This document shows positions 3,784 to 53,156 of a stretch of 64,000 nt of DNA, in pieces (within the stretch, counting starts at the first letter, position 1; each line of letters begins with the position of its first letter). The DNA comes from Octopus sinensis (lineage: Eukaryota). A model generated the notes under the pieces. That model searched no databases, was not told where the DNA came from, and worked only from the letters and a program-made list of their open reading frames with translations. The stretch covers positions 182,962,001 to 183,026,000 of the forward strand of contig NC_042997.1 of NCBI RefSeq assembly GCF_006345805.1. The letters are read 5' to 3'. The translations under genes and the position numbers were made by a program.

Positions 3784-4943
3784 GTCTAAAGGTATATCTT
3801 GTCTTTTAGCCAATACAGTAAGGTAAATGAAAACAGATATTTGGTTTGTGAAGTGTTCATTGACAAATAAAGCAACTTCAATTTATTCAAATTTGCTATT
3901 GAGTGCATTAATAATTAATTAATTGAATAAGTCCTCAGCATTGTAAGAAAAACACTTATGCAAATTAAATTTACCAGTTTAGCATTGCCATATAAATTGC
4001 TGTTAGCTATATTCTTTTTATGAATAAAAGAGACAGGTACTGGCTTCTGAAGAAAGTCCCAAAAAGTATTGAAACCAGGCCTTTTCTGTCCTCAAAAAAT
4101 CTTGTGCTCTTCTACAAAGGCAATCTGTTGCCACTCCTCCCAAGAAAAATCTAGTGTACTAGCATTCTGGTCTACTAGAAACTCTTAACCAACAATGCTA
4201 TTGTGCACCAATTGTCATAAGTAATAACAAGTGAGTGTGTGTGTATGTATGCATGTATGCATGTGTGTATGTATGTATTGTATGTATGTATGTATGTATG
4301 TATTGTATGTATGTATTGTATGTATGTATAAGTTTATGTGTGCCTGTCTGTTTATTTTTACAAGAGTTGCTTAGTTACTTAACAAGTTAGTATGTCCTGT
4401 ATTTTAAATAGCTCCAGGATATTATGCTTTTGTATGACAAATAACATTTGATCACACTGGAAATGTTATTTAACTAAACAAAGCCTCTTCATGAATAGCA
4501 TGTTCTTCAAGGAATGGTGTGGCAAAGTTCAAGTCAACATAAGATTTGAAAGGAAATTCCGTTAGCCAATCTGTTACATAAAGTAATTTGAATTGTGATT
4601 ACAATGTTTTATTGTATGAATGAATGTATAAAAAGTAACAGAACACCAATCCCACACATTACTGGTGGCAGTAGCAGTGATAGCAACACCAGCAGAAGAG
4701 GAAAGGAAGAAAGGGAACTTGAGAGAGGGGGAAAATAAAGGAACATTTATAGCACACAGCTACTACTCTATTGTTGCTTAGCCTCAAATCAACAATAACC
4801 CAGCAGCCCCTGATCTAAAGTGTTTTGTTGGTAATTTTTTTTTTTTTGTATTCAGCCATAGTGTATCTAGGGCTATAGTATTAATGTCTTTTATAAGATG
4901 ATAGGGTATGGCTTATGGGAGATATGGCTGCTATTTCTTGTAT

Positions 4944-5176
4944 AAGGCGGCGAGCTGGCAGAAACGTTAGCAGGCTGAGTGAAATGCGTAGCAGTATTTC
5001 GTCTGCTGTTACGTTCTGAGTTCAAATTCCGCCGAGGTCGACTTTGCCTTTCATCCTTTTGAGGTCGATAAATTAAGTACCAGTTTCGCACTGGGGTCGA
5101 TGTAATCGACTTAATCCCTTTGTCTGTCCTTGTTTGTCTCCTCTATGTTTAGCCCCTTGTGGGTAATAAAGAAATA
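4944..5176 (+). mobile_element. tRNA-derived SINE with Nin-like central domain
   Basis: AAGGCGGCGAGCTGGCAGAA head, GAGTTCAAATTCC B box and GCCTTTCATCCTTT..GGTCGATAAATTAAGTACCAG. Near-identical copy at 63196-63431. Confidence 0.85.
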
Positions 5177-5188
5177 TATTTCTTGTAA

Positions 5189-6603: not shown

Positions 6604-7700
6604 ATTAGATTGTTCTGAAAATAATGGCCAATTTCAGAAACAAATATTCTGGAAAAATTGACAATAGAATTGTTTTGATTAGTCAAAGTATGAGCCATGA
6701 ACATCTATGCATCTCTGCCATTGACCAATGAGATTATTTATGCTTTGTCGATAAAAACTGATTGGCTTTGATGCTAAGAAATCTTTGAGAGCTGATTCCA
6801 CCTCTGGTGTGGACTTGAATGTTTTATCTCTTAAAAATGTGTTTAAATGCTTTAAAAAATTGTAGTCAGCGGGTGAAAGATCAGGAGAATATGGAGGATG
6901 TGGTAAAATCTTGTATCCCAAGTCTATGAGCTTCTGCAGTATCATTCTTCCAACATGTAGCTTTGCATTATCATGGAGCTGAATTGGGCCATGCCGATTC
7001 ACCAATACAGGTCTCGTTTTTTGCAAGTAAGTATGCATTTCAGCGAGTTGATTGCAGTAAACCTCCGTTGTAATGTTCTGATTGGCTTCCGGAAAGCTGT
7101 AATGGACAACACCAATTGCAGACCACCAGACAGTCATCATAATCTTTTACTGATGCAACTTTGGCTTTGGGAAATGTTTAGGGGGCTCATCACGATCAAG
7201 CCATTGACCTGATCATTAATGCTTTTCATCACAAGTGACTATTCAGTCAAGAAAAGGATCAAGTGAAGCACACTTCAAAACACTGGACGTTTTGATTTTC
7301 ATTGAGCTAATGTGGTATCCATTTATCAAGCTTTTTTCCCTTACCAATCTTCCATAGATTGCGTGAGACTGTTGCTATACCAACACCAAGTACCTGAGAC
7401 ATTTCTCTGACACTTTGACGTGGATTTTGTTCAACAATTGCTTTCGATAGTTTATTGTCAAGACTCATGACCATCCTCTACTTTCTTCATCTTCAAGGCT
7501 CTCATCACTACTACGGAATTTCTGAAACCGCCTTCATACTGTGTGATCACTTGTGGACCCCTCTCCTCATGCTCTGTTAATATTGGCAGTAGTTTGAGAG
7601 GCATTATGCCCAAGCTTGAACTCATGCAAGAAAATAAGCGATGGTCCTTTTTTGTCATGTTCATAATTAAGGGTGCCTATGATTCAAGAATGTTTTCTGT
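6604..7700 (-). mobile_element. mariner transposon relic (Hsmar1/cecropia-like); transposase C-terminus open at 6679-7140
   Basis: MMTVWWSAIGVVHY...HDNAKLH...HPPYSPDLSPADYNFLKHL...WQRCIDVHGSYFD*. The frameshifted N-terminus starts near 7664. TIR-like TTAGATTGTTCTGAAAATAAT near 6605. Confidence 0.92.
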
Positions 7701-10887: not shown

Positions 10888-11081
10888 TTTGCCAGTACCG
10901 CTGACTGGGTCTTGTGCTGGTGGCATGTAAAAGCACCCACTACACTCTCAGAGTGGTTGGCTTTAGGAAGGGCATCCAGCTGTAGAAACTCTGCCAGATC
11001 AGATTGGAGTCTGGTTCGTCAGACCTCAGTCAAATCGTTCAACCCATGCTAGCATGGAAAGTGGACGTTAAACGATGATGA
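10888..11081 (+). mobile_element. RTE 3' UTR copy
   Basis: Same AGGAAGGGCATCCAGCTGTAGAAA motif and (GAT)n tail. Confidence 0.75.
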
Positions 11082-11105
11082 ATATTGAAAAATTGGCTTT
11101 TGCTT

Positions 11106-11266
11106 CCTCATCATTATCATTTAACATATGTTTTCTATGCTGGCATGACTTTGATGGTTTGATGGGAGCTGGAAAGCTGGGAAGTTGCATCAGACACCTA
11201 GATACCTCTCTGATTTGGCATGGTTTCTACAGCTAGATGCCCTTCCTAATGCCAACCACTTTACAG
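11106..11266 (-). mobile_element. RTE 3' UTR copy (inverted)
   Basis: Reverse complement TTTCTACAGCTAGATGCCCTTCCTAATGCCAACC with an (ATC)n-type tail. Confidence 0.7.
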
Positions 11267-11270
11267 ATCT

Positions 11271-11746
11271 TCAAACGCTGGGCCTCATGGAGGCAATGAC
11301 TAGTGATTGAGACCTTTGGTGATATTCTGTGCTTGAGAAGACCCATCGAGCCAAATGTTATCATAGTTGTGGCCGATGCTGGTGTCATGTAACTAGAACC
11401 CATGCCAGTGACACACAAAAAGCACCTTTCAAATTTTGGACATCACGGATGCAATGGGGCATGTAAAAAAAAAGCACCTTTTGAGTGAGGGGCCTCACAG
11501 AGGCATTGTGACTGATGCCAGTATTGCGTAACTAACACCTGTGCCACTGGTACGTAAAAGCATCCATTACACTCTTGGAGTGATTGGCGTTAGGAAGGGC
11601 ATCCAGCCGTAGAAACCATGCCAAATCAGACTGGAGTCTGGCGCAGCCCCTCAGTTTACTAGCCCTGGTTAAACCGTCCAACCCATGCCAACATGGACTA
11701 TGGACGTTAAATGATAACGACGACGACTACGATGACAATGATGATG
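11271..11746 (+). mobile_element. RTE LINE 3' end (ORF terminus plus 3' UTR with internal repeats)
   Basis: Translation LGLMEAMTSD*DLW*YSVLEKTHRAK matches the RTE C-terminus seen at 29150-29353. It is followed by repeated units and the conserved 3' motif. Confidence 0.75.
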
Positions 11747-13894: not shown

Positions 13895-14285
13895 ATATTC
13901 TTTTCTATTTTAGGCACAAGGCCCAAAATTTTGGGGGAGGGGACCAGTCGATTAGTATGCAACTGGTACTTAATTTATCAACCCCAGAAGGATGAAAAGC
14001 AAAGTCAACCTCAGTGGTATTTGAACTTAGAACGTAAAGATAGATGAAATACCTATTTCTTTACTGCCCACAAGGGGCCACACACAGAAGGGACAAACAA
14101 GAACAGACAAATGGATTAAGTCAATTATATCGACCCAGTGCGTAACTGGTACTTATTTAATCGACCCCGAAAGGATGAAAGGCAAAGTCGACCTCGGCGG
14201 AATTTGAACTCAGAACATAGCGGCAAATGAAATACCGCTAAACATTTCACCCGGCATACTAACGTTTCTACAAGCTCGCCACCTT
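13895..14285 (-). mobile_element. Nin-like SINE tandem dimer
   Basis: Two successive CTGGTACTT..TTTA.TC.ACCCC..AAGGATGAAA.GCAAAGTC.ACCTC units; head at ~14285. Confidence 0.75.
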
Positions 14286-14989
14286 TATAACAGAAGAAAA
14301 TTGAAAATTGACATAAGGGAGTAAGTCAAACAATAGTCTGCCAATATGTATCAATAAAAAAATAGTTTAGATAATTGAAGTGATTTATTGAGTAATGAAC
14401 TGAGACCAAACTTATGTTGCATCTTTTGGCCCTTACAAAGAAAAGGTGTTAGAATCATTTTCTTTCATGAGATGCTTTGAAAAAACAGAAGAAAAAGAAA
14501 GGCAGAAATCTTGTTGATTGCTGACCAGTACATAGCAGATCCACATTTAAAGCCATTTTTCACTCTATACAAAACTCAACTGAAACACTGAATGAAGTAC
14601 AGTTTCCACATCTATGATGGTGTTGCTGCTACACATACAAACATCCAGTGTGTTGGATTTTAAACTTGGAGAAGCTCTAAACTATAAAAAGTATGATGGG
14701 CCTTTGTTAAAAGGTTACCAGAAGTCCTTATAAAAATTGGAAATATATATGTCTTTTCATTATATTGAGGAATCTGGAGATTGTGAAGACCTAAGCTGTA
14801 GATTGTTCAGTTGACTACACCTAAAGAAAGGAGTTACTTAACTGATTAGCATGAAGTCATTCACCAACACACACTAATATGCTGACACCTCACTCTGCCT
14901 CTTCTGTTGTGGGTGGAGGAGAAGATATCTTGATCCCCAATTTCTTGAGACAACTCAAGAAAGGAATTCTCATAGTTACAATCAAGTAA

Positions 14990-15385: not shown

Positions 15386-16307
15386 GGATAGGGCAGTAAG
15401 AGTGGTGACAGTGGACGCAGATGAAGTAGTGGCAGCAACAGCAAATGCAATGGCAGAAATGAAGATTATGAGGGTGGTGATTGTGGTGGTATTGATGATG
15501 ATGATGATGATGCTGATGGTGGTGGTGGTGGTGGTGGTGGTGAGGGGGGAAGGAGGAGGACGACGACGACAACAACATTCAGTTTAGGAAGTTCTTTTAA
15601 AATCAACTACTAACTTGAGAAATCCATCTGTGCTAACTGGAGAAATTGCTGCAGATCAGAGAGTGCTTCTGCTTAGCAATCCTGAGAAGCCTCGTCATAA
15701 AATACAAGGTCAGATACTAAGAAAGAGAAACAAGTTCAGAAAAGATTCAATGGTATATAGGGCAAGCGCACCTCAGAGAGTCCTCTATGATATCCAGGGT
15801 ATCACAAGGCATTTACTGCATATTATAAGACTCAGAGGAGAGGGAGCAAATTTTTACCACAATAACCATATATCAAGAAGTCCTAGATATATGTGGGAGA
15901 ACCCTTCAAAAAACCCCTTTCAATCCTTTCAATGACCATAGATAACTTTGAAACTTTTCTGATCATCTATAAATTCTCAAGATATGGCAAGCCATAGCAC
16001 CAGTTTTTATCCACTAAGAATTTCAATTTCCAACTAAACTTCTATTTAGTGTGCATACGTGTGTGTGTGTGTGTGTGTATGTGCATGCATTGTGTGTGAG
16101 TGTGCATGTGTGTGTGTGTGTGTGTGTAAATTTAATATACAATGTACGGATTTACATAATCCAGCCATGATAAAAAAAAGGCTCCTTTAGTGGACCCAGT
16201 TACAAACCACATAATAAACCAATATGTAGAAGAGTAATGTAGAGTCCCATGCAGTTGAAATCCAGTAAATCCAATCAGTGAAGATTATCTCATGAGGAGT
16301 ATACTGA

Positions 16308-16735
16308 GTATAAAGAAAGTCAGGAAGTATGAGATATATATTTCACCAGTTGATATGCATAGGATGATAGCCATTTTGCAGCCAACATCATGCAAAAAAT
16401 TAGTTATTTTAGTTATAATAAATTATTTTACATGTCTGCATTACATTATTTACAGTATTTACATTATTTACATTTGATGGATATTTGTCCTCATCTTTGT
16501 TGTTAACATGTTTCGGCTGATATATCCCCCACAGCCTTCATCAGGTGTCTTGGGGAAATTTCGAACTTGGGTTCTCATTCCTAAGGTATTTTTCGATGTT
16601 GTTGTTATTATTATTATTATTGTTGTTGTTGTTGTTGTTGTTATCATTATTATTATCATAATTATTATCATAATTAATTATTATCATAATTAATTATTAT
16701 TATTATTATTATCATAATTATTATCATTATTATTA

Positions 16736-16780
<45 letters not shown>

Positions 16781-16945
16781 TCACTGCTTGGAATTGAACT
16801 CAGAATCTTGGGGTTAGTAGCCCACGCTCTTATCCACTACGCCATATGTCCGTGTATATGGCGTAGTGGATAAGAGCGTATGCTACTAACCCCAAGATTC
16901 TGAGTTTGATTCCAGGCAGTGACCTGAATAATAATAATAATAATA

Positions 16946-16985
<40 letters not shown>

Positions 16986-17498
16986 AACAACATCAAAAAA
17001 TACCTTAGGAATGAGAACCTAGGTTCGAAATTTCCCGAGACACCTGATGAAGGATAAATCATCCGAAACGTGTTAACAACAAACAAGATGAGGACAAATA
17101 TCCATCAAATATAAATAATGTAAATAATATAAATAATGTACATAATTCCTCATCTCTTAAATATAGAACTGTAATGTCTGCATTAGTATGTATGTATGCT
17201 ATAAAATGCAGATATAGAAAGTTAGCTCTTCAGATCAACAGAATATCACAAAAAATTGATGTGACTGTGATATTCTTTTGATCTGAAAAGCTAGCCTTCT
17301 ATATCTGCATTGGTTTGTAAAATGTACAAAAGTACTATGCAATGTATAGCATACATACTAGTGCAGACATGTAAAATAATTTATCATACACTAAAATGAA
17401 TTATTTTTTCATGGATGTTGACTGTAAAATGGCCATCATCCTATTGATTTCAACTGGTGAAATAAATATATTTATCTCATACCTCCTGATTTTCCTTT

Positions 17499-17502
<4 letters not shown>
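16308..17502. mobile_element. ~465-bp foldback (palindromic) MITE split by an HHR-SINE insertion
   Basis: 16308-16443 is the imperfect reverse complement of ~17359-17502. Central hairpin at 17208-17310 (ATGCAGATATAGAA...TTCTATATCTGCAT). Confidence 0.75.
16444..17173. mobile_element. head-to-head inverted dimer of a tRNA-headed, hammerhead-bearing SINE-like element (copy 1)
   Basis: Two divergent tRNA-like heads (A box TGGCGTAGTGG, B-like box) at ~16780-16925, (AAT)n linkers and CTGATGAAGG...CCGAAAC motifs at ~16505-16549(-) and 17039-17074(+). Flanked by the perfect TSD ATGTCTGCATTA (16432-16443 / 17174-17185). Confidence 0.85.
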
Positions 17503-17580
<78 letters not shown>

Positions 17581-17761: not shown

Positions 17762-17846
17762 TCTGTAAAAAACATAAATCTGAAAGAAGAAGTACACTAT
17801 AAGATGTAGAGCAGTATATATTAAAAATGGGGAAGGGCAGTTAATG

Positions 17847-17905
17847 GGATTACCTTAGGTTTCCTGTCTATAAAGAGCTTAGCTTTATGGCGTATCCTCA
17901 GATCC
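17847..17905 (-). ncRNA. type-I hammerhead ribozyme in PLE pLTR
   Basis: GGAU-CUGAGGA-...-GAAA-CCUAAGG-UA-AUCC on the minus strand. Confidence 0.75.
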
Positions 17906-19078
17906 CAAAAACCTGTTGGCCCCCAAGACCTCTTTAAAATATGGAGGAGGAAAAGCATCACTACTCAAAGGTAACAATTGGGGATTATCTCCCTTAGCTA
18001 TTAGCCATCGACTTCCAGCTGTGCTGCTATCCTGTGGGCTCCAAAAATCCAGCAGGAACCTCCTGAAATGTAAGCATGGCCTGAAAATCTCCGTTCTGGA
18101 GTTAAGGATGTTCTCTGGTTCAAGTGAGTCCTTTAGGATTCTCGTGTGTTCAGCTATGCATAAATTGCAATGCTTCTTCCTGCTGGTGTAGGGGCCTAAG
18201 TTCCAGAGGATTTTCCATCAGATCAAGTATAGAATCCCATTGTCTCTTAATTGCCAGATGTGGCTGGCCAGTGATGTTACGTATATCCTCTCTGGAACTC
18301 TGAAGGAAGACCTGTGGTTGGAAAGACATTGCTTGAAAGAGTTTCCTGAACATCCAATGTATTTGTATGGGCATTGTGTTGTCGGTGCTGTATTTGTATC
18401 TGCTGGTGTTGTTGTTGTTGAAGCTGGAACTGCTGGTGTGGGCATCACTAGAGGTGGTAGTGGCATTGGTAATGCTGGTTATGGTGAAGGTGCTATTGTC
18501 ATTATTGTGGTCCTCATCATTGGTGGGAGAGTTGCCATTTCTTCTAGAGGTGTCATTAGCTGTGGTTCCGCCAGTGTTTCTGCTAGGGCCACTGTTGCTG
18601 CTGCTGTTGTTGTTGTTGTCGTTGTTGTTAAGCAACAAGACAAGTAAGGGTGATTAGGTGATGGTCTAGGGCTTAGGGGCGGGAGACCCCAGACTTTGGA
18701 AAAAAAACTTTGGTTGTCTTTTTGTAGTCGAGGGCTCTTCGTTGACGGCCGACACCACTGGGAGGTGGCCCTCGAAGTCGCTTGAAATGGAGATCTCTAG
18801 GTCCAAGTTCTTGGACGGCTGCTGCTGCTGCTGTTTCTATTGCTGCCATTATTGCTGTTATTGCTGGAGGTGGCATTGTGTCTGGGAACATCCTTAACTC
18901 CAGAACAGAGATTTTCAGGCCATGTTTACATTTCAGGAGGTTCCCGCTGACTTTTTGAAGTCCACAGCTTGAAGTCGATAGCCAATAGCAAAGGGAGATA
19001 ATCTCTAATTGTTACCTTTGAGTAGTGATGACTTTCCTCTTCAATATTCTTAAGAGGTCTTGAGCCAACAGGTTTTTA

Positions 19079-19135
19079 GGATCTGACGATATGCCATAAA
19101 GCATATCTTTATGGACAGGAAACCTAAGGTAATCC
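19079..19135 (+). ncRNA. type-I hammerhead ribozyme in PLE pLTR
   Basis: GGAT-CTGACGA-tatgCCATAAAG catat CTTTATGG acag-GAAA-CCTAAGG-TA-ATCC. Confidence 0.8.
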
Positions 19136-19260
19136 CATAAACTAGCCTTCTCCATTTTTAATATATATATAAAGCATATATATACATAATAATTATTTGA
19201 GGGAATATTATTCCTAACTTACAGGGGAAAATTCAATTTAGAAATACTAAATCAAATTAC

Positions 19261-19422: not shown

Positions 19423-20145
19423 ATCATCATCATCATCATCATCATTTAATGTCTGCTTTCCATGCTAGCATGGGTTGGACGGTTCAACTGGGGTCTGGGG
19501 AGCCCAAAGGCTGCACCAGGCCAGTCAGATCTGGCAGTGTTTCTACAGCTGGATGCCCTTCCTAACGCCAACCACTCCGAGAGTGTAGTGGGTGATTTTA
19601 TGTGCCACCGACACAGGTGCCAGACGAGGCTGGCGAACGGCCACGCTCGGATGGTGTTTTTATGTGCCACCGACACAGGTGCCAGACAAGGCTGGCAGAG
19701 GACCATGCTCGGATGGTGTTTTTATGTGCCACCGACACAGGTGCCAGACGAGGCTGGCGAACGGCCACGCTCGGATGGTGTTTTTATGTGCCACCCACAC
19801 AGGTGCCAGACGAGGCTGGCGAACGGCCACGCTCGGATGGTGTTTTTATGTGCCACCGACACAGGTGCCAGACAAGGCTAGCAGACGACCACGCTCGGAT
19901 GGTGTTTTTTTTATTTATGTGCCACCGACACAGGTGCCAGATTAGGCTGGCGATCGGCCACGATTGGATGGTGATTGTTACGTGCCCACAGCATGGAGGC
20001 CAGTCGGTGCGGTACTGGCTACGGCCACGTTCGGATGGTTTTCTCGTGTGCCACCGGCACTGGTACCACAAAGATACAAATTCCATTGATGTTCATCTAT
20101 TTTGATTTTGTTTGATTTGTTTTGATTTTGATTTTGTTTTGTTTG
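19423..20145 (-). mobile_element. RTE 3' UTR copy with expanded ~61-bp minisatellite
   Basis: (CAT)n tail, conserved 3' motif, then about 7-8 tandem ATGTGCCACCGACACAGGTGCCAGACGAGGCTGGCGAACGGCCACGCTCGGATGGTGTTTTT units. Confidence 0.8.
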
Positions 20146-24395: not shown

Positions 24396-24776
24396 TTAAC
24401 ATGCAATATCACACTTCATATGCAAGTTTCTGCGAGCAGTACAGTAAATGCATGACTGAAAGTAATTTGAAGCTAGAACCCTTTCACAGTCTGAAGACAG
24501 TTGATATTATTTTACTATTGAATAGGGATCCATATCTACTTGGCTGCAAAAGAGTGATGACATTTAGACATCATCCACACTATCTTTGTTATATTCATTA
24601 TTATCATTGTCATCGTCGTCATCACCATCATTACCACCACCACCACCACCACCACCACTACCACCACCACCACCACCACCACCACCACCATCACCACCAC
24701 CATCATCAACATTATCGTCATTACCACTATCACCACCACCAACAACATCGCAATCATTATCACTATTATCATCATT

Positions 24777-25517
24777 ACTTATTTCTTTACTACCCACAAG
24801 GGGCTAAACACAGAGGGGACAAACAAGGACAGACAAACGGATTAAGTCGATTACATCGACCCCAGTGCGTAATTGGTACTTATTTAATTGACCCCGAAAG
24901 GATGAAAAGCAAAGTCGACCTCAGCGGAATTTGAACTCAGAACGTAACAGCAGACGAAATACCTATTTCTTTACTACCCACAAGGGGCTAAACACAGAGA
25001 GGACAAACAAGGACAGACAAACGGATTAAGTCGATTATATCGACCCCAGTGCATAACTGGTACTTATTTAATCGACCCTGAAAGGATGAAAGGCAAAGTC
25101 GACCTCGGCAGAATTTCAACTCAGAACGTAGTGGCAGATGAAATACCTGTTTCTTTACTACCCACAAGGGGCTAAACACAGAGAGGACAATCAAGGACAG
25201 ACAAACGGATTAAGTCGATTATATCGACCCCAGTGCGTCACTGGTACTTATTTAATTGAACCCGAAAGGATGAAAGGCAAAGTCAACCTCGACGGAATTT
25301 GAACTCAGAACATAACAGCAGACGAAGAGACAAACAATGACAGACAAACGGATTAAGTTGATTATATTGACTCCAGTGCGTAACTGGTACTTATTTAATC
25401 GACCCCGAAAGGAAGAAAGGCAAAGTCAACCTCGGCGGAATTTGAACTCAGAACGTAACGGCAGACAAAATACGGCTACGCATTTCGCCCGGCGTGCTAA
25501 CGTTTCTGCCAGCTCAC
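24777..25517 (-). mobile_element. Nin-like SINE tandem tetramer (~185-bp period)
   Basis: Four successive copies of ACAGACAAACGGATTAAGTCGATT...GGCAAAGTCGACCTC; a single tRNA head at ~25517. Confidence 0.85.
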
Positions 25518-25845
25518 CATCTTCTTCATTGTCCATACCATCATTTACATCATCACCACTATCACCACTACCCACCACCATCATCACATTCATCAGCATA
25601 ATCATCATTGTAATAGTTTCCATCATTATTTCCATAATTGTTGTTATTCCCATTACCATTGCCACCTCATCACTAATCATCACCACACATTTTTTTTCCC
25701 TCCATCAACCATCAACCATCAACTCACACAGCTCCACCTTTACCATCGCTGCTACTATCTCTAATAATCTCTTCTGTGACCATCATCACATTAACGATAG
25801 CTACCATCACATTGCCACCAGCAACTCTTCAATGAAGTACTGATG

Positions 25846-27834: not shown

Positions 27835-28089
27835 GAATCGAGCGAGGTCGTTGCCAGTACTGCCTGACTGGCCCCATGCCAGTGGCACGTAAAAGCACCC
27901 ACTACACTCTCGGAGTGGTTGGTGTTAGGAAGGGCATCCAGCTGTAGAAACTCTGCTAGATCAAGATTGAAGCCTGGTGCAGCCATCTGGTTCGCCAGCC
28001 CTCAGTCATTCATCCAACCCATGCTAGCATGGAAAGCAGACATTAAACGATGATGATGATGGTGGTGGTGGTGGTGGTGGTGGTGGTGG

Positions 28090-33966: not shown

Positions 33967-34422
33967 GTTAGTATTATTATTACTATAACCGCAGCAGCAG
34001 TACTAACAATAGCAGTAGTAGCAGCAGCAGCAGTGGTCGTGGTAGAAAAAGAAATAATGGCAGTAATTTATCAAATTTGCGTTACATATCTTGAATAAGC
34101 AAGAGATTATATGTATATGTATCTCTCTCTCTCTCTCTCTCTCTACAACGAAAAAACAGAGTACAAGACATACAACACAAGGAATATTCCACTTCTTCAG
34201 TCGCCCGTTTCGACTACTCATATATAAACGGGCAACTGAAGAAGCGGAATATTCTTTGTGTTGTATGTCTTGTACTCTGTTTTTTCGTTGTTTGAAAAAA
34301 GTCCGTTTCCATGTTTTCGCTTCTCATTGTGTTCTACGTTTTTTTTTTTTTTGGTGTTCTGTACCCATATATGCATGTATATATACATATGTATATATGC
34401 ATATGTTTTATTTATTATTTTG

Positions 34423-34503
<81 letters not shown>

Positions 34504-34622
34504 TACATATAATCTCTTGCTTATTCAAGGTATGTAACCCAAATTTGATAAATTACCGCCATTAGTTCTTTTTCTACCACGACCACTGCTGCTGCGGTTA
34601 TAGTAATAATAATACTAACTAT
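33964..34622. repeat. nested palindrome (inverted duplication)
   Basis: 33964-34144 is reverse-complementary to 34471-34622; inner hairpin 34145-34210 / 34226-34291. Confidence 0.85.
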
Positions 34623-37330: not shown

Positions 37331-38005
37331 CTATTATCACGGTAATGAATATAATTTCTTTCATCGTTATCACTGTATCGATGTCACCAATATTACTGTA
37401 TTAAATATCAACTACCGTCGCTATCATTGTATTCAATACTACCACTGCCACAAGCGTACTACTTCTACCACGATCACTATCAAATGTACTACTTCTATCA
37501 CGATCACTATCTTTATCAAATGTCAGTTCTTCCACCATAATGATCAGCGTAGTCAAAATCACCGATGGGTCTTCGTCGTTTCACATAGAAGTCTCACTTT
37601 TTCGATCATCGACTGAATTTCCTACTCCTAAATTAACAAACAAGTGACTAAAAGAGGCATAGGCAACCTTTTTAGAGAAGCGGGCCGCATGACACGTGGA
37701 TCATCATCAGGCGGACTATACTACGAAAATATTTCAAGGTAATTCTTAGTTGGGCGTGTCCAACAAAATTTCACTCACCACTAGTTTCCAGGTTTGATTC
37801 TACTGCGTAGCACCTTGGGCAGATGTCATTTTCTGTAGCCTCGGAGAGACATATTGCCGATATAAACCCAGGCACCAGTTATATTTCACTTTTGTTATTG
37901 TTGTCGTTTTTAACATTAATCAACTACAGTTCTATATTTAAGAGATGAGGAATTATGTACATTATTTACATTTGACGGATATTTGTCCTCATCTTGTGTG
38001 TTGTT

Positions 38006-38051
38006 AACACAACGTTTCGGCTGATATACCCTCCAGCCTTCTTCAGGTGTC
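38006..38051 (-). ncRNA. minimal type-I hammerhead ribozyme (intact core)
   Basis: GACAC-CUGAAGA-a-GGCUG(gagggUAUAU)CAGCC-GAAA-CG-UU-GUGUU; palindromic stem III AACGTT. Confidence 0.8.
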
Positions 38052-38142
38052 TCGGGGAACTTTCGAACCTGGGTTCTCATTCCTGAAGTATTTTTCGATG
38101 TTGCTGTTGTTATTATTGTTGTTGTTATTATCATTATTATAA

Positions 38143-38404
38143 TTCTTTAAATGTCAACGCAGTCCACATTTTTTTATGCGAGATGTCATCTAAGAGCACA
38201 CGGTAGAGAAAAATTGCTATACTTTCTCTACTTAGGGAAAATACACAAAGCTTTTAAGCACTCTTCCCCATGGAGATCTGATGAAGAAAACTACAAATAA
38301 AATTTTAAAATTCCTTTGGAGAAATTTAAAAAAAAAGGATAAAGCGACGAAAGGTGTGACTCGTACAGTTAGAACATAGAAGAAGAAGAAGAAGAAGAAG
38401 AAGA
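38143..38404 (+). mobile_element. unclassified (GAA)n-tailed repeat, truncated copy
   Basis: Reverse complement of ~40516-40824; inserted in the (ATT)n linker of HHR-SINE copy 2. Confidence 0.7.
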
Positions 38405-38601
38405 ATATTATTAATATTATTATTATTATATTATTATTATTATTATTATTATTATTATCATCATCATTATTATTTTTCAGGTCACTGCCTGGAATCGAAC
38501 TCGGAATCTTGGGGTTAGTAGCCCCAAGAGCGCGGGCTACTAACCCCAAGATTCCGAGTTCGATTCCAGGCAGTGACCTGAAAAAAAAAAAAAAAAAATA
38601 A

Positions 38602-38692
<91 letters not shown>

Positions 38693-40515
38693 CAGCGAAA
38701 ATATCTTAGGAATGAGAATCCAGGTTCGAAATTTCCTCCAAGGCACTTGATGAAGGCTGGAGGGTATATCAGCCGAAACGTTGTGTTAACAACGAACAAG
38801 ATGAGGACAAATATCCGTCTAATGTAAATAATGTATCAGTCAACTAGTTAATTAATTAACTACTAAAATGTTTGAACAATTAGTCGGTTCACAAGTATCC
38901 TGTCGACGCCGTCTGTAACTTCATAAATTACCTGCTTTCGTCTACTCTACGCATGAGAGTATATCTTCAATGAGGACACAGGCGGCTGCGAAAGTATTCT
39001 TGAAGTCGCAGACGGCTAGCTACAAAAGGACACCGACTGATTGGTTAACTGATTGATTGAGTGGGTGAAGAAATAATTGGTTAAATGTTGACAAATAAAA
39101 AAAGAAAGAAAAAAGAAGCTAAATATAACCAGTGTGTGTTATCATATTGACAAAATAGCCCTTTCGATTTTCAAAGACTGTTTAACATGCGGTGGTGATG
39201 TAAAAAAGTGTAAGTAAATTGCGATAGATACCAGAAGTAGTGAAATCCCATCATTTCATCATATTTATATAGCATGAAAACATTGCATAGAACGTTCATA
39301 TATTTTTTCACCCTTTTCCCTTATTTATACAGATACGGGATAAATGAAGCAACTCTAGTTTAGCACTATCACCTGAGTTTTGTTCTTGGCAATTATACAC
39401 CACTCTTGAGTAGTCTGTACATAGCAGTTGTTTTCAACTCCATTTCCGGTCACGTGTAAATCGCGAGTCTATCTTGCGTGCAGACCCCATTTCAACCAAT
39501 CAGGAATTTTTTGTTCACGTGATAATTGTTAGAACTTTCCTTCAAAGAAGGACTTCTAGCGCTAAGGACCAGAGGGAATTGGAACCCCATTGGTTACGGT
39601 CTCTGGCGAGTTCCTCTCTCGACCTGTTTTCACAGCTTCATACTCAAACCAGCGCGATTCTCCTAATAGCTGTTCTCACAGTTCTATACCAAACCCGGAG
39701 ATGGATGATGAATCAACGCAACTATACATAATTGCAACAATCTGAAGAATCACTTTAATTATCTCCGGCACCTCAAAACACGATGTTCATACAAGATTAC
39801 TTTGTCATAACCAACTCTACAGATCTTGTTAGATCAACAAAATTTAAAGAATGGTTCGCAACTTCACAATTATATATATGTAACCTAAACTCATATAGGA
39901 AGTCTATCCATCGGATATCAAATGCACCACTCAATAAACACTCACAATACCCGGTCTGGGAATCGAAACCGCGATCCTATGACCGCGAGTCCGTTGCCCT
40001 ACCCACTGGGCCATTGCGCCTCCTGTGATAATAGTATTGAATATAGAGATAATGATAGTGGAGGATATGTTACTTGACAGAGTTGTAGTAATTGTTAAGG
40101 AAATGGATATCAAAACGGAAAAACCGTGTAATAGCTGTGATTTCTGTACACAGTAATCACTTTCACGGCTCTGCAAAGTGTTTATAACTCCAGCCGTGTA
40201 TAAATATTATTGCTTTGTAAATCAATGTATCCTTAACTTTTTCATTACTGTTTTGAGTTCAAATAATGCCGAAGTCAACTTTACATTTCATTCCTCAGAA
40301 GTTGATATAAACTGATTGTTCCCTCTCTCGAAATTTCTGGCCTTGTACCTACGTAGATTGGCAGAAGAGCGGTGGTTTGGCGGAATCGTTAGAACGTTCT
40401 GATATTTTATATTCTGAGTTCACATCCCACTGGGGCTAAGATTGTCTTTCATTCTTCCGAGGTCAATAAAATAAAGTACCAGTCATGTACTGTGTCAATT
40501 CTGGCCTTATCTAAA

Positions 40516-41000
40516 TTCTTCTTCTTCTTCTTCTTCTTCTTCTTCTTCTTCTTCTTCTTTCTTCTTCTTCTTCTTCTTCTTCTTCTTCTTCTATGTTCTA
40601 ACTGGACGAGTCACCTATCGTCGCTTTATTCTTTTTAAAAAATTTCTCCAAAGGAATTTTAAAATTTTATTTGTAGTTTTCTTCATCAGATCTCCATGGG
40701 AAAAAGTGCTTAAAAGCTTAGTGTATTTTCCCTAAGTAGAGAAAGTATGGCAATTTTTCTCTACCGTGTGCTCTTAGATGACATCTCGCATAAAAAAATG
40801 TGGACTGCGTTGACATTTAAAGAGAAAGCAGCCTTGACATATACTTGCGATTCCTCGGAGGCTGACACTTGTCGAGAAAATGTGCTTTTGGTTGAGCAAT
40901 TTTCAGAGAAATTTTGTAGCAATAGAATCACCAAAAACATGCCTGGCAGAAAGAGCATAACAACACCACGTCTTAAGTCGACCGAATACTACAGAAGAAG
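40516..41000 (-). mobile_element. unclassified (GAA)n-tailed repeat, longer copy
   Basis: (TTC)n followed by CTATGTTCTAACTGGACGAGTCACC...; homologous to 38143-38404. Confidence 0.65.
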
Positions 41001-41019: not shown

Positions 41020-41431
41020 GGATCTTTTCGGTTTGAACGGCAGTTTTTTCTAGCGGAGTCATATGAAAATGTCACCCATAATTATGACCCTAGTATCGAT
41101 CTATTGCATTTCAATCTCTTTTAGGGTTAGGGGTGGGGGGAAGGATATCTTTTTTTTTCAGAAATGTAAATAAACCCAATCTGTTTCTTAAACGAGGGAC
41201 ATATTCATACGGCACAGAATGTTTTTTCACCTCAATAGACGTCATTGATTGGTTGAAATTGCAGAAATTGAAGAAAAAAACAACAAATATCTTACAAACT
41301 ATAGAATTTTCTCAATAAAGCCAAGAGAAAAAGATGTTTCATAAACACATTCTACCAGTATACGAAGTTTAAAAGTGTTTAGTTACGTGGAAAATTATTT
41401 TAAAAAACTGCCGTTCAAACCGAAAAGATCC
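41020..41431. mobile_element. Merlin-like MITE
   Basis: 29-bp TIR GGATCTTTTCGGTTTGAACGGCAGTTTTT; 8-bp TSD TTATCTTC/TAATCTTC; internal TTAGGGTTAGGG. Confidence 0.9.
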
Positions 41432-41589
41432 TAATCTTCATCACCAAAACCATCTCTATCACTGCTCCCACTATGGTATCTAACGACACCAACAACAACA
41501 ACGCAAATATAACTTGCATCAATAACAACTCCTCGCCTGTGACTACTGACTTAGTGAAAGAAAACTGGTTAACATACAGTTCGTCGCCG

Positions 41590-42000
41590 TAAAAAGTGAA
41601 AGTAAATTGTCCTTAAAAAACGGCAATGATATACTAACATTTGATAAAAAGAGCGGGAAGAACTCCATACCCGCTTGCACGCGTGAAGTACTTTGGCCTG
41701 TTACAAGGCATTGGAACACTTTTGATATTCGATGGGTGGCTTCATATGTGGGTCTCAACAACTCCTAAACTCATAAATTTGTCAACCATTCCCTCGATTT
41801 CGTTGTTCCAAACGATGGCTGTATACATACATAGACTACAGAAAGGAGATAAATGCTCGCCAAAAAGAAACTTAAACAACAATGTGGGACTTGTAGTGAA
41901 AAAAGTCTGTCGTCATTTCCATTTTGTAGGACAATTTATTTCCACTTTTTTACGTCGTAAACTGCACGTTAATCGACAGTAACGTTACAACAGTTACTGT
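41590..42000 (+). pseudogene. Merlin (IS1016/ISXO2-like) DDE transposase relic
   Basis: GTLLIFDGW /frameshift/ ASYVGLNNS*THKFVNHSLDFVVPNDGCIHT*TTERR*MLAKKKLKQQCGT matches the Merlin pattern SDGW..Y...H..VNH...FV.P...HTQ.IE..W. Confidence 0.8.
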
Positions 42001-42012
42001 CAACAACATTGC

Positions 42013-42429
42013 GGATCTTTTCGGTTTGAACGGCAGTTTTTAAAAATAATTTCCACGTAACTAAACACTTTTAAACTTCGTGTACTGGTAGAATGTGTTT
42101 ATAAAACATCTTTTTCTCTTGGCCTTATTGAGAAAATTATATAGTTTGTAAGATATTTGTTGTTGTTTTTCTTCAATTTCTGCAATTTCAACCAATCAGT
42201 GACGTCCATTGAGGTAAAAAACATTCTGTGCCGTATGAATATGTCCCTCGTTTAAGAAACAGATTAGGTTTATTTACATTTGTGAAGAAAAAAAGATACC
42301 CCCCCCCCAACCCTAACCCTAACCCTAAAAGAGATTGAAATGCAATAGATCGATACTAGGGTCATAATTATGGGTGACAATTTCATATGACACCGCTAGA
42401 AAAAACTGCCGTTCAAACCGAAAAGATCC
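42013..42429. mobile_element. Merlin-like MITE (same family as 41020, inverted)
   Basis: Same TIRs; perfect 8-bp TSD AACATTGC (42005-42012 / 42430-42437); internal CCCTAACCCTAA. Confidence 0.92.
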
Positions 42430-42932
42430 AACATTGCTTCCACCTAACCCTCCACATTCACACTATCAAATGCAGCACGTTTATCGCTGTTATCCACACC
42501 AACATAAACAAAGCCAAGTCATTTATAAGAGTCACACAACCGTGAATAGAGGATTCGTTTCCCGACAAGGGAGAGTTCAGGTAAAAATATAAATACTACA
42601 TAGTTAAACCTGACTTGCTCGCATTACCAAAAGTGAAAAAGGATGACATACGAAGAAGGGCTACAAATATCAACGGAAAGACTGTAACGGTTGACAGTTC
42701 TACACCCAGTACAAACCGAAAATTATTGTGTAAAGGATATATGGGTTGTATATGCCACACGAGGCAGGAAAAGCAATATGGTTCGATATCTATACTTAAA
42801 TGAAGAATTTAGAGAAATAGCTACAAATACTTGTTCTTCTGATTAGTATTTAATTACTGCCGTCCTAAGGAGGCAAGAAATCGAGGTGACGTTCAGCAAT
42901 GGACCATCTGGAATATATATGTAACGATATTT

Positions 42933-43555
42933 GGATCTTTACCTTTTGACCTACAGATTTAAAAAATAATTTTTTGTAACTAAATACTTTCAAACTTCGG
43001 ACACTGGTAGAATGTGTCATATAAAACATCTTTTACTTTTAGCATTTTTGAGAAAAACTTATATTTACGAAGTTATTTCACGTTAAAGTTGTCCTATTTC
43101 AGTAATTTCAACCAATCAATGACGTGTATTCAGCTGAATAAAATTACTGCTGTTGTTTGTCAACAAGAACTTCCGGTGGTGTATATTTCGTTTGTCACTG
43201 TTATTTATGAAAACCCTAACCCTAAAGCCCTAACCCCTACCCTAAAACCCTAACCCTAACCCTAAAACCTTAAAACCAGTACAAACGCACGAACGATGTC
43301 ATAGATAACAGTGACAAACGAAAAACACACCACCGATAGTTGTTGTTGACAAACAACAGCAGTAATTTTATTCAGCTGAATACACGTCATTGATTGGTTG
43401 AAATTACCGAAATACGAGAACTTTAACGTGAAATAACTTCGTAAATATAAGTTTTTCTCAAAAATGCTTAGAGTATTCTACCAGTGTACGAAGTTTGAAA
43501 GTGTTTAGTTACAAAAAATTATTTTTTAAATCTGTAGGTCAAAAGGTAAAGATCC
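42933..43555. mobile_element. foldback Merlin-like MITE
   Basis: Arms of ~270 bp starting GGATCTTTACCTTTTGACCTACAGATTT; perfect 8-bp TSD CGATATTT; central (AACCCT)n-like spacer. Confidence 0.92.
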
Positions 43556-45685
43556 CGATATTTTAGGTGGAGTGAATGGTCACCATTTGTAACGATATAT
43601 TTTAGGATATGTGTTGGAGTCGGCTGTTACTAATTGTAACGGATATTGATGTTGCAGATGTGCAAGATGAAAGAAGAACAGTGATCAAAGTTGCTGTTGA
43701 CTCCAAATTTTTAATTACCGTTACTTAAAATATTGCCATGCCTCAACGGGCTGGTGTGTGTGTAATAATATAAGTGGAAAAGTATGCGGGGTAAAGAAAG
43801 TAAATTTCGGCTTGCATGTATGTGTAGGCGATCTCATAGTAGTATATATATAGAGAGATGGTAATGTTGCAGAGGAAAGAAATTGAGCTAATGAAAGCAA
43901 GAGGGTGTGGGACGACACAACTTCTGCATTGGTTTAATTCTTTCTAACTCCATAGTTGTCACTCTGACGTTACTTCAGTCGAGACAGCATTTCGTTTGAA
44001 CCGGTCAACTTTCCTTCTATCAGTTGCTCTCACTAACTTTTCCCTGAAGGCTGCTAGAATTTATAAGAATACAAGAAGCAACCAAAACAAAGGATATTTT
44101 GTGGGATCCATTGTTATCTCAATTCACTTATCTGCCGCAGACGAGGTTAGAAGGTCAAGTGGCAAAGACATAAATCGACCTAGCGAAACCATCTGATAAA
44201 TGTAACTGTCATTATTGTTTTCTCTGTGAGAAAAGTGCTGTTGAAATGTTAAAGGAAATTGGCAGATTCAGGTTCGAATCTACTCTATGCCTAAATGAAG
44301 TCACTACATATTCTCTATATATAAAACTGAAATGCATTTCGACCGTTTGTATCGCTTTCAAGGTCACTACATCCCGTCCGATTGACTCCAAAATTTACAG
44401 GGACATGTAAAATGAGGTGACGATGACCGTGGGCTACCTTAGAAATCCCTATCTTAAAAGGTGTCGTTGCTAGGGCCAAAAACCTACTTTGACAAGTCCA
44501 CTGGCGTTCTTTAATGTATCTGTCTTCCTCAACTCACTCTCGCTATTTCCTCTCTTCCCAGCACTTTTTCACTCACTCTATTTCCTACCTTACTACTTTC
44601 ACTTCGTCAAACCGCGTTCTTTTATGTATCTGTCTGCATTCATAGAGAGAAATATCATCGCCATATGCAACGCGTCTATCAACGACAGCCGCAAAATTTT
44701 AAATATTCCTACTTCACCTCTTTCAGAAACGTAACAGATATTATTTTTTGTGGCGGGGTTAAAGGCCACTAGATCCTGTCGGATTCACTCCAAAATTTAC
44801 ACCTTTTCTTTCTACCTCTAACTCCCCTTCAATCATCGCCACCACCACCACCACCAACACACAATCATGACAATCTTTCTCTTAAAACAAATCATGTTTA
44901 CATTGCAAAATATTTCATTTTTCAGTCCTCTCTTTCATATATCACCCTTTCTTTCTCGAGCTCTCTCTTTCCCCCCTTCCATCCCTTTTCTCTCTATCAA
45001 TTTATTTCTATGCTCAAGCCGACCGTCGTTAACAAAAATTTTTCTGTAAGTTTTACAAATTTTTCCAATTTTCATATATTTACATCTTAACTATTTTATT
45101 CGTTTTCTCATTCTAAACAAAATCAACTTTAGGTTTACAAATATTTCATTTTCCAGATTTTATTTTCAATATGCCTAGGCGTAAACACTCCAACTTATCA
45201 AACCACCGAGCTACAGTCAGGAAATTGAAAAGGAGGGAGGCACATGCTCGGGTAATTTTTTGATTACTAAATAGCCTTTTTATCTAAAAGACAAATTTTT
45301 CTAATACGGGCTTTTCACTTGCCTTCTGGTGATAACTTACCGTTAAAAAAAAATTTTTTTTTAACATTTTACTTTACTGAAAATATTAAAATCATTAACA
45401 TAATCCCTCATTCGCTATCTTTTCTGCATTTTTCTAAGCTATACTCAAATCACATTTTTCCAATGTTTTAACTGTCAATTTAAAAAAAAAAGGATTCATA
45501 TTTTATAAGTTCAATGAAAATGAGCTCTTCGTACTTTTAAAATTTACTGAGAAAAACTTACAATATACACCCCTATTTTTCATAATTTTTTAATGCACAT
45601 TGCTTTTTATCCTCCTTTTCTCCATGAAGGATCAATCACATATTTATTCGGTTCATTTATATATGTGTGTGTGTCTGTGTGTGTG

Positions 45686-45730: not shown

Positions 45731-45734
<4 letters not shown>

Positions 45735-46190: not shown

Positions 46191-46222
<32 letters not shown>

Positions 46223-51756: not shown

Positions 51757-52027
51757 TACAGTTCTATATTTAAGAGATGAAGAATTATGTACATTATTTA
51801 CATTATTTACATTCGACGGATATTTGTCCTCATCTTCTTTGTTGTTAACAGAACGTTTCGGCTGATATACCCTCCAGCCTTCTTCGGGTGTCTCGGGGAA
51901 ATTTCGAACTTGGGTTCTCATTCCTAAGGTAGTTTTCGATGTTGTTGTTGTTGTTGTTGTTGTTGTTAGTGTTCAGGTCACTGCTTGGAATCGGACTCGG
52001 AATCTTGGGGTTAGTAGCCCTGAACAC

Positions 52028-52061
<34 letters not shown>

Positions 52062-52062
52062 T

Positions 52063-52093
<31 letters not shown>

Positions 52094-52486
52094 TAATAAT
52101 TATTAATAATAATAATAATAATAATAATTAATAATAATAATAATAATATTAATAATAATAATAATAATAATTAATAATTAATAATTATAATAATCATTAT
52201 TATTATTATTAATTAATAATAATAATAATAATAATAATAATCAATAATTAATAATAATAATAATAATAATTAATAATAATATAATAATAATAATAATAAT
52301 AATATAATAATAATAATTAATAATAATAATAAATAATAATAATAATAATTAATAATAATAATAATAATAATTAATAATAATAATAATATTAATAATTAAT
52401 AATTAATAATAACAATAATAATAATTAATATATAATAATAATATAATAATAATAATAATAATAATAATATTAATAATAATAATAAT

Positions 52487-52517
<31 letters not shown>

Positions 52518-52568
52518 TAATAATTAATAAGAATAATAATAATAATAATTAATAGAAATAATAATAAT

Positions 52569-52612
<44 letters not shown>

Positions 52613-52681
52613 TAATAATTAATAATAATATAATAATAATAATTAATAATAATAATAATATTAATTAATAATAATAATAAC

Positions 52682-52764
<83 letters not shown>

Positions 52765-52903
52765 TAATAATATAATAATAATAATAATAATTAATGATAA
52801 TAATAATTATAATAATAATTATAATAATAATAATAAATAATTAATAATATAAATAAGAATAATAATAATAATAATTAATAAAAATAAAAACAAAAATAAT
52901 AAT

Positions 52904-52986
<83 letters not shown>

Positions 52987-53156
52987 CAACAACAACAACA
53001 ATAATAACATCGAAAAATACTTTAGGAATGAGAACCCAGGTTCGAAATTTCCCCAAGACACCTGAAGAAGGCTGGAGGATATATCAGCCGAAACGTGTTA
53101 ACAACAAACAAGATGAGGACAAATATCCGTCGAATGTAAATAATATAAATAATGTA
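51757..53156. mobile_element. inverted dimer of tRNA-headed HHR-SINE (copy 3) with ~950-bp (AAT)n expansion
   Basis: Left arm carries the tail, HHR and partial tRNA head. Right arm has GACACCTGAAGAAGGCTGGAGGATATATCAGCCGAAACG; its tRNA head is lost. Confidence 0.85.

What the first reader, a model, noticed from the sequence alone, without database searches (positions are those of the whole stretch)
17141..17173. Asymmetric ~33-nt tail on only one arm of every HHR-SINE dimer
Seen: in all three dimers one arm ends with CATAATT(C/T)CTCATCTCTTAAATATAGAACTGTA-like sequence (17141-17173; reverse at ~37925-37960 and ~51757-51790). The other arm stops just before it, at ...AATAATGTA. Known: Penelope insertions carry a short 3' extension (tail) on one terminal repeat. 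Inference: a stereotyped integration mechanism (priming at the tail, then fold-back or template switch) rather than chance inversion.
Basis: partly seen in the sequence, partly recalled or inferred. Interest (0 to 1): 0.7.

Follow-up and report, generated by a model that had tools for sequence, protein, structure and literature searches.

The report
One-sided Penelope tail on retroposon dimers
A short octopus jumping-gene family inserts as two back-to-back copies of which usually only one keeps a 33-base end piece, a known signature of Penelope-type retrotransposons, here carried by a small tRNA-like element that could be used to test how such insertions are made.

Summary
Confirmed. All 3 head-to-head dimers carry the 33-nt tail on one arm (33/33, 33/33, 32/33 identical); the other arm stops at the same junction within 0-4 nt, although the 9-nt repeat before it varies (3, 1, 2 units, equal in both arms of each dimer). 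Dimer 1 has a perfect 12-bp target-site duplication with a readable empty site, so the dimer is one insertion. A related family seen through chance ORFs uses the same two end-points (26 and 92 of 140 stretches); 11 of 12 scorable dimers have one tail and 1 has two, so 'every' is too strong. The tail on one inverted repeat is a published hallmark of Penelope-like elements (PLEs) and maps between two reverse-transcription start sites. What looks new is the carrier: a non-coding octopus element with a tRNA-like head, a minimal hammerhead and no LINE-type tail. Best model: a PLE enzyme nicks both strands 10-12 bp apart and primes twice, once at each start site; the two cDNAs join at variable centres. 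Fold-back is the main rival. No autonomous partner was found, and the tRNA origin is weakly supported.

The parts
16432..16443 (+). Dimer 1, left copy of 12-bp target-site duplication (last 2 nt also match the short-arm end)
   Evidence: 12/12 match, null fraction 0.0013; single copy at the matching place of the host palindrome's other arm
16442..16851 (-). Dimer 1 short arm: full tRNA-like head (A and B box), (AAT)n linker, hammerhead-like body, 3 nine-nt units, no tail
16852..16855 (.). Dimer 1 centre: 4-nt spacer between the two 5' ends (boundary inferred from the tRNA alignment)
16856..17173 (+). Dimer 1 long arm: head, linker, broken hammerhead, 3 nine-nt units, tail
17086..17094 (+). 5' strand of the 9-bp RNA stem that pairs with tail positions 7-15 (17147-17155)
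17141..17173 (+). 33-nt tail (the finding)
17174..17185 (+). Dimer 1, right copy of 12-bp target-site duplication
37915..37926 (+). Dimer 2, left copy of imperfect duplication (10/12; overlaps tail end by 2 nt)
   Evidence: null fraction 0.024
37925..37957 (-). Dimer 2 tail (33/33)
37925..38524 (-). Dimer 2 long arm, 5'-truncated head, 1 nine-nt unit; linker interrupted by a later insertion at about 38144-38400
38006..38051 (-). Best-preserved minimal type I hammerhead: 5-bp helix I, intact core, helix II, palindromic 4-mer in place of helix III; predicted cut 53 nt before the short-arm end and 86 nt before the tail end
   Evidence: MFE fold gives helices I and II; not found by Rfam
38526..38835 (+). 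Dimer 2 short arm, starts about 7 nt further 5' in the head than the long arm, 1 nine-nt unit, no tail
38835..38846 (+). Dimer 2, right copy of imperfect duplication
51757..51789 (-). Dimer 3 tail (32/33; the one change keeps the stem as a G-U pair)
51757..52020 (-). Dimer 3 long arm, head truncated at the same place as in dimer 2, 2 nine-nt units
52019..53156 (+). Dimer 3 short arm, almost no head, 2-nt microhomology at the centre, about 970 bp expanded (AAT)n linker, 2 nine-nt units, no tail; target duplication uncertain (10/13)
   Evidence: null fraction 0.067

Best explanation
The element is a non-autonomous passenger of a Penelope-like (PLE) reverse transcriptase with GIY-YIG endonuclease, and the tail is the stretch between two fixed reverse-transcription start sites. 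Shown in sequence: one insertion event per dimer, a 10-12 bp target duplication in AT-rich DNA, two fixed 3' ends 33 nt apart, variable 5' ends meeting head to head, a PLE-type minimal hammerhead upstream, and a 9-bp stem formed by the tail with the short end in its loop. Inferred: (1) the tRNA-like head drives a Pol III transcript that runs past the tail; (2) a dimeric PLE protein binds the stem-loop and nicks the two target strands 10-12 bp apart; (3) one nick primes at the distal site (arm with tail), the other at the proximal site in the loop (arm without), on the same RNA or on sister RNAs of one source; (4) the two cDNAs stop in or near the structured head and are joined there bluntly or by 2-4 nt microhomology. 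Confidence about 0.85 that this is a PLE-type tail from a stereotyped reaction, about 0.5 for double priming as the route.
For: Fixed short end despite 3/1/2 repeat units, with equal unit number in both arms of each dimer. Target duplication and empty site. Linker type agrees within dimers, and the by-dimer tree needs 24 steps against 27-30 for long-versus-short trees (best 23 of 105 trees). The short arm of dimer 2 holds head sequence absent from the long arm, and the three centres differ. Hammerhead fold fits the minimal PLE type (PMC4209133). Tail stem in 3 of 3 long arms, 20 of 1000 shuffles as good. No T4 run in 5 of 6 arms; the six runs in the sixth lie in the later insertion. Related family: ends at columns 41-42 (26) and 51-53 (92) of 140 stretches, only 10 between; 11 of 12 scored dimers one-tailed, Fisher p 0.018. 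In vitro, the anole PLE protein cuts and extends both strands, starts at two internal sites that bracket the tail, and is predicted dimeric (PMC11167929).
Against: No autonomous partner found: no RT or GIY-YIG domain in 122 window ORFs, and no PLE-type protein among the listed hits of four searches (the last two list only 150 of 224 and 120 of 886 hits). Arm identity within dimers (92.2%) is hardly above that between dimers (91.6%), and one CpG site splits long from short arms 3:3. On substitutions alone the by-dimer tree (19 steps) ties with the best long-versus-short tree (19). Dimer 3's arms differ at two linked characters, and its centre fits fold-back equally well. Two related dimers read as two-tailed (P0068, P0004). 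In the second protein set the short-end peak is weak (8 at columns 41-42 against 6 at 43-50 and 67 at 51-53, of 85). The whole-region fold is unusual only in dimer 2 (z -2.0, -0.3, -0.7). The tRNA match is weak (11.8 bits, E 4.2). In the anole study start sites did not differ between strands, so why the two primers should usually pick different sites is unexplained.
Confidence: 0.55

Rival explanations
1. Fold-back: one priming at the tail end; the first cDNA snaps back or switches template at the head and copies itself, and the endonuclease or a bound protein stops or cuts the second arm at the tail boundary (an 8-bp palindrome sits there).
For: Explains equal unit number and linker within dimers without two RNAs. 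Dimer 3's centre fits a 2-nt snap-back, and dimer 2's centre has 5 nt that fit a short snap-back. The short end falls at the centre of an 8-bp palindrome. Self-priming and endonuclease resolution are the published suggestions (PMC3846280; PMC8557442).
Against: The short arm of dimer 2, and probably dimer 1, has head sequence that the long arm lacks, which needs a second template or a later central deletion. It does not explain two-tailed dimers or why direct tandem units end at the same two sites.
Confidence: 0.27
2. The asymmetric palindrome is itself the unit that is copied (from one or a few master dimers, through a read-through or antisense transcript), so the asymmetry is inherited and the arms are homogenised by conversion.
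For: One CpG site separates the three long from the three short arms; within-dimer identity is not above between-dimer identity. No monomers in the window.
Against: Three different centres; unit number and linker follow the dimer, not the arm type; long-versus-short trees cost 3-6 steps more than the by-dimer tree on all characters.
Confidence: 0.12
3. A fold-back DNA transposon or MITE with inverted ends, or two independent SINE insertions, or a chance inversion followed by deletion of one end.
For: The window holds many palindromic elements, and dimer 1 sits in one.
Against: Ends are unequal by a fixed 33 nt, 5' ends are variably truncated, one duplication flanks the pair, the hammerhead and tandem units are retroelement traits, and the same two end-points recur in a related family.
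Confidence: 0.06

Closest known systems
EN+ Penelope-like elements with an inverted 5' pLTR and optional tail (Penelope of Drosophila virilis; Adineta vaga Pen2a_Av; Poseidon PAc of Anolis)
   Same: Head-to-head inverted copy, 30-40 nt tail on one end (31 bp in Pen2a), 8-10 bp target duplications, hammerhead upstream of the tail, AT-rich targets, partial tandems in the related family (passages and sections of PMC3846280, PMC8557442, PMC11167929).
   Different: No ORF or RT; a tRNA-like head and (AAT)n linker replace the body; the insertion consists of nothing but the two inverted arms; no partner identified.
Non-LTR (animal) retrozymes and non-autonomous PLEs such as MRC1
   Same: Non-coding, type I hammerhead, proposed PLE derivation (bioRxiv 10.64898/2026.07.22.740005; PMC8557442). 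The related family has head-to-tail units of about 45 codons.
   Different: Retrozymes are direct tandem repeats; the window's copies are inverted pairs with an asymmetric tail and a tRNA-like head.
Schistosoma hammerhead SINE-like repeats
   Same: Pol III promoter plus hammerhead in a short repeat (review PMC6765202, passages).
   Different: Described as tandem repeats released by cleavage; no inverted dimer or PLE tail in the passages read.
tRNA-derived SINEs, including octopus OK, OR1, OR2 (Ohshima and Okada 1994)
   Same: Short, tRNA-like head with A and B boxes, octopus host.
   Different: No LINE-derived 3' end or simple-repeat tail. Identity with OK/OR1/OR2 could not be tested: paper not held, SINEBase supplements unreadable; OR2 is cited as a CORE-SINE; the names OK and OR1 are recalled.
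L1 twin priming (recalled, not read here)
   Same: Both target nicks prime; inverted 5' part; microhomology at the junction; target duplication kept.
   Different: In L1 the two cDNAs copy different parts of one RNA from variable internal sites; here both copy the same segment from two fixed sites 33 nt apart.
TRIMp3 (Helenus, Ajax, Cassandra)
   Same: Precedent for a small-RNA-derived Pol III promoter on a non-autonomous element of a class other than LINE/SINE (PMC10886601, passages).
   Different: Those are LTR elements with PBS, PPT and 4-5 bp duplications.

Membership tests
Penelope-like elements (EN+), non-autonomous derivative | 30-40 nt optional 3' tail on one end | tested here: met
   33 nt, 3 of 3 dimers; 11 of 12 related dimers
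Penelope-like elements (EN+), non-autonomous derivative | Inverted, 5'-truncated copy head to head | tested here: met
Penelope-like elements (EN+), non-autonomous derivative | Minimal type I hammerhead in the terminal repeat | tested here: met
   Intact core and both helices in 1 of 6 arms, C3-to-U in a second, damaged in 4. The descriptor also gave 1 unrelated site and 0-1 per shuffle in 20 shuffles; Rfam gave no hammerhead; activity untested.
Penelope-like elements (EN+), non-autonomous derivative | Short target duplication (8-10 bp in A. vaga) in AT-rich DNA | tested here: met
   12/12, 10/12 and uncertain 10/13; flanks 70-80% AT
Penelope-like elements (EN+), non-autonomous derivative | Own or partner PLE RT plus GIY-YIG ORF sharing the pLTR and tail | tested here: inconclusive
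   None in the window or among listed protein hits; no eukaryotic genome or repeat library could be searched as DNA
SINE (SINEBase definition) | At least 60% identity to a tRNA over 60 nt | tested here: inconclusive
   Rfam tRNA 11.8 bits (cut-off 29), E 4.2; ARAGORN none; A box in 2 arms, exact B box in 3 and one-mismatch B box in 2; likeness to tRNA-Arg is recalled only
SINE (SINEBase definition) | Pol III transcription from the internal promoter | not testable with these tools
   Indirect only: no T4 run in the element's own sense sequence
SINE (SINEBase definition) | 3' tail of simple repeats and dependence on a LINE | tested here: not met
   Arms end at fixed unique sequence; the simple repeat is internal
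SINE (SINEBase definition) | Short, interspersed, at least 100 copies | tested here: inconclusive
   3 dimers in 64 kb; close relatives in two Octopus species; copy number not measured
Non-LTR retrozyme | Direct tandem repeats each with a type I hammerhead | tested here: not met
   No direct tandem in the window; present in the related family
Octopus OK/OR1/OR2 SINEs | Sequence identity to the published consensus | not testable with these tools

The most novel reading that the evidence does not exclude
An abundant octopus 'Penelope-SINE': a Pol III, tRNA-headed passenger of a PLE enzyme that integrates as a ready-made hairpin because both published RT start sites are used in one event, one from each nicked target strand. 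That would extend the SINE strategy to PLEs, explain in one step the tail and the inverted pLTR of PLEs, and supply many long double-stranded RNA substrates in a genus with extreme A-to-I editing.
Probability: 0.35. Interest if true: 0.78.

Novelty: new variant of a known kind. Interest (0 to 1): 0.52.

Why it matters
How PLEs make their tandem and inverted ends and one-sided tail is described as unresolved (PMC8557442); the only in vitro study gives two start sites but no full integration (PMC11167929). A short, high-copy element whose every insertion records both ends, the target duplication, a template barcode (repeat number and linker type) and the central junction lets double priming, fold-back and inheritance be told apart by counting alone. 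It also suggests that part of what is annotated as octopus SINE is PLE-mobilised (O. vulgaris: SINE 11.6%, PLE 6.83%; PMC13282606). Self-folding dimers would add to the high dsRNA and hyper-editing load reported for octopus (PMC5625713); that link is inference.

Tried and rejected
Rfam at gathering thresholds gave 0 matches; at E up to 5 it gave 129 matches, nearly all microRNA models on simple repeats, and no hammerhead; none on the best arm either. ARAGORN found no tRNA. Head against phage records gave 2 chance 21-nt hits. The 52-codon open frame through the tail was considered as the start of a partner ORF: no Pfam domain, and the hits are short chance ORFs or one octopus gene model; the only RT-related domain among them is an LTR-type RNase H piece in flanking sequence (P0131). 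Not taken as coding. A first script had an off-by-one error (redone), and one crashed part-way (rest in 69). By eye I first read P0068 as one-tailed and P0011 as tail-less; the scored test reversed both. Two 14-nt motifs were absent from the PLE supplement of PMC8557442. Organism names for the related family could not be obtained, so its host is unknown. Not in print as far as searched: no description of a tRNA-headed PLE passenger or of this family in the listings of searches. Repbase, Dfam, SINEBase files, bioRxiv supplements and the 1994 octopus SINE paper were not available and may already hold it.

Full report
Observation. The window holds six arms of one repeat, arranged as three head-to-head pairs, with no monomer and no solo tail. 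One arm of each pair ends in the same 33 nt: 17141-17173 (+), 37925-37957 (-), 51757-51789 (-), identical at 33, 33 and 32 positions. The partner arms end at 16442, 38835 and 53156, and the following 33 nt match the tail at 10, 11 and 10 positions. A point it missed: the tail is preceded by a 9-nt unit present 3, 1 and 2 times, the same number in both arms of each dimer, and the short arm always stops after the last unit. The stop is therefore tied to a sequence junction, not to a length.

One insertion per dimer. Dimer 1 is flanked by a perfect 12-bp direct repeat (16432-16443, 17174-17185; 4 of 3000 random flank pairs score as well). It sits in an older palindromic element whose other arm shows the uninterrupted site with a single copy. 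Dimer 2 has a 10/12 repeat (null 0.024); dimer 3 is uncertain (10/13, null 0.067). One to four end bases are shared between arm and duplication. Flanks are 70-80% AT and unrelated apart from simple repeats.

Anatomy of an arm. A roughly 73-nt head has an A box (2 arms) and a B box (exact in 3, one mismatch in 2). Rfam aligns it to tRNA from 16851, but at only 11.8 bits and E 4.2, and ARAGORN finds nothing, so tRNA origin is likely but unproven. An (AAT/AAC)n linker follows, then a body with a minimal type I hammerhead. In the long arm of dimer 2 the core is intact and the MFE fold gives helices I and II with a palindromic 4-mer in place of helix III, the design described for PLE ribozymes (PMC4209133, first quarter read). 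Four of six arms, including the one in the finding, are damaged there, and Rfam does not detect it. Tail positions 7-15 pair with nine bases upstream in 3 of 3 long arms (20 of 1000 tail shuffles do as well); the single tail change keeps a G-U pair; the short end lies in the loop at an 8-bp palindrome. The fold as a whole is unusual only for dimer 2 (z -2.0 against -0.3 and -0.7). The element's own sense strand has no T4 run, as a Pol III transcript would need.

Centres and arm relations. The centres differ: a 4-nt spacer between nearly full heads (dimer 1); a junction where the short arm starts about 7 nt further 5' than the long arm (dimer 2); and a 2-nt microhomology with almost no head on the short arm (dimer 3). 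The long arms of dimers 2 and 3 stop at the same place in the head. Unit number and linker start follow the dimer. On 12 informative characters the tree pairing arms by dimer costs 24 steps (best of 105 trees 23) against 27-30 for trees separating long from short arms. On the 10 substitution and indel characters alone it is 19 against 19-22. Identity within dimers is 92.2%, between 91.6%, and one CpG site splits long from short arms. De novo formation is thus favoured, modestly.

Relatives. The frame open through the tail was used as a probe. It hits an Octopus sinensis gene model at 86% and an O. bimaculoides entry at 81% including the tail, which places the family in Octopus. phmmer gave 224 hits, 150 listed, nearly all short chance ORFs. 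Of 166 anchored stretches in 149 of 151 proteins, 140 belong to a related family of unknown host and 26 were set aside as other. Their homology ends at columns 41-42, the short-arm point, in 26; at 51-53, the tail end, in 92; between them in 10; before in 12 (per protein 26, 78, 10, 11 of 125). A profile search gave 886 hits, 120 listed, 91 new; among 85 scored last units the counts are 8, 67, 6 and 4, a weaker short-end peak in a list ranked for long matches. Fifteen ORFs cross a head-to-head pair with a clear inverted core; 3 had too little flank; of 12 scored, 8 have the tail only on the direct arm, 3 only on the inverted arm (one marginal, p 0.04), 1 on both, 0 on neither (Fisher p 0.018). 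Two of the 12 share 3-4 residues outside both ends, as a 9-12 bp duplication would give (permuted mean 0.09); P0125 shares 4 by eye. Outside that count, P0004 reads as two-tailed, P0146 as one-tailed and P0142 as tail-to-tail. The family also forms direct tandems (pattern count 17 in 15 proteins, one a false positive). All of this is read at peptide level from hits selected by similarity, so it supports a strong bias, not an absolute rule.

Mechanism. Published: a 31-bp tail optionally on one of the inverted pLTRs with 8-10 bp duplications (PMC3846280, passages and Discussion); a 30-40 bp tail often at one end with an inverted 5'-truncated copy (PMC8557442, passages); and, in vitro, cutting and extension of both target strands from two internal start sites that bracket the tail, in a stem-loop downstream of the hammerhead, by a predicted dimer (PMC11167929, parts 1-2 of 4 read; its figure supplements gave only labels). 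Joining these to the anatomy, the simplest reading is double priming: one nick starts at the tail end, the other 33 nt upstream, and the two cDNAs meet in the head. That step is inference (about 0.5). Fold-back with a cut or block at the junction remains plausible (0.27) and explains dimer 3 equally well; inheritance of a master palindrome is less likely (0.12).

Membership and novelty. It works like a PLE terminus: tail, inverted copy, hammerhead and duplication are met. A partner RT was not found in 122 window ORFs or the listed protein hits, so membership is probable, not shown. It fails the SINE criterion of a simple-repeat, LINE-type 3' end. The asymmetric tail is already known. A tRNA-headed, non-coding carrier that inserts as a bare inverted pair did not appear in the listings of ten searches, but repeat databases, SINEBase files and Ohshima and Okada 1994 were unavailable, so it may be a known octopus repeat whose ends were not interpreted. 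Other papers seen as passages only: PMC13282606 (with supplement), PMC3531059, PMC4758252, PMC6765202, PMC6962438, PMC5625713, PMC12910113, PMC8969392, PMC10886601; the retrozyme preprint as part 1 of 5 plus passages (17, 78). L1 twin priming, the names OK and OR1, and the tRNA-Arg likeness are recalled and come from no call.

Verdict. Real and stereotyped; the feature is a known PLE hallmark on a new kind of carrier. New variant of a known kind, interest 0.52.

Noticed in passing
window 16307-17503: Dimer 1 is inserted in an older, roughly 460-bp palindromic (MITE-like) element whose arms are about 74-83% alike; it supplies the empty site.
   Followed up: partly
window 38144-38400 and 40560-40823: A 234-bp repeat ending in (GAA)n, 94% identical to an inverted copy 2.2 kb away, is inserted in dimer 2's linker; it looks like the 3' end of another retroposon.
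   Followed up: partly
window 52030-53000: The (AAT)n linker of dimer 3's short arm has expanded to about 970 bp.
   Followed up: no
window 38524 and 52020: The long arms of dimers 2 and 3 are 5'-truncated at the same place, the base of the anticodon-like hairpin: a possible RT stop or deletion hotspot.
   Followed up: partly
window 37925-38080 (-) and 51757-51921 (-): A frame from an ATG stays open through the tail end (52 and 55 codons; tail = 11 codons, unit = 3 codons). An O. sinensis gene model (LOC115224785 isoform X2, P0003) begins with this peptide, suggesting exonisation or a model artefact.
   Followed up: partly
proteins P0006-P0244: A related family of unknown host has direct tandem units of about 45 codons with one hammerhead-like segment each (retrozyme-like), as well as inverted pairs and one tail-to-tail case (P0142).
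   Followed up: partly
window 47410-48525 (+): 371-aa frame with a Helitron Rep/helicase N-terminal domain (PF14214, E 7e-60).
   Followed up: partly
window 6679-7146 (-): Mariner-type transposase fragment (PF01359, E 3e-14).
   Followed up: partly
window 17815-19167, 34035-34584, 41020-42429, 42927-43561, 57627-60427, 63097-63940: Several other long inverted-repeat elements; the window is rich in potential hairpins.
   Followed up: no
window 4935-5182, 13953-14295, 24776-25518, 63193-63437: A second SINE-like family, with a tandem of about 184-bp units at 24776-25518.
   Followed up: no
window 45732-46751: A 420-bp, 100% identical tandem duplication at 600-bp spacing: very recent or an assembly artefact.
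   Followed up: no
window 19591-20068: Tandem array with a period of about 62 bp next to a dispersed repeat also found at 1283-1578, 10889-11726 and 27839-28064.
   Followed up: no
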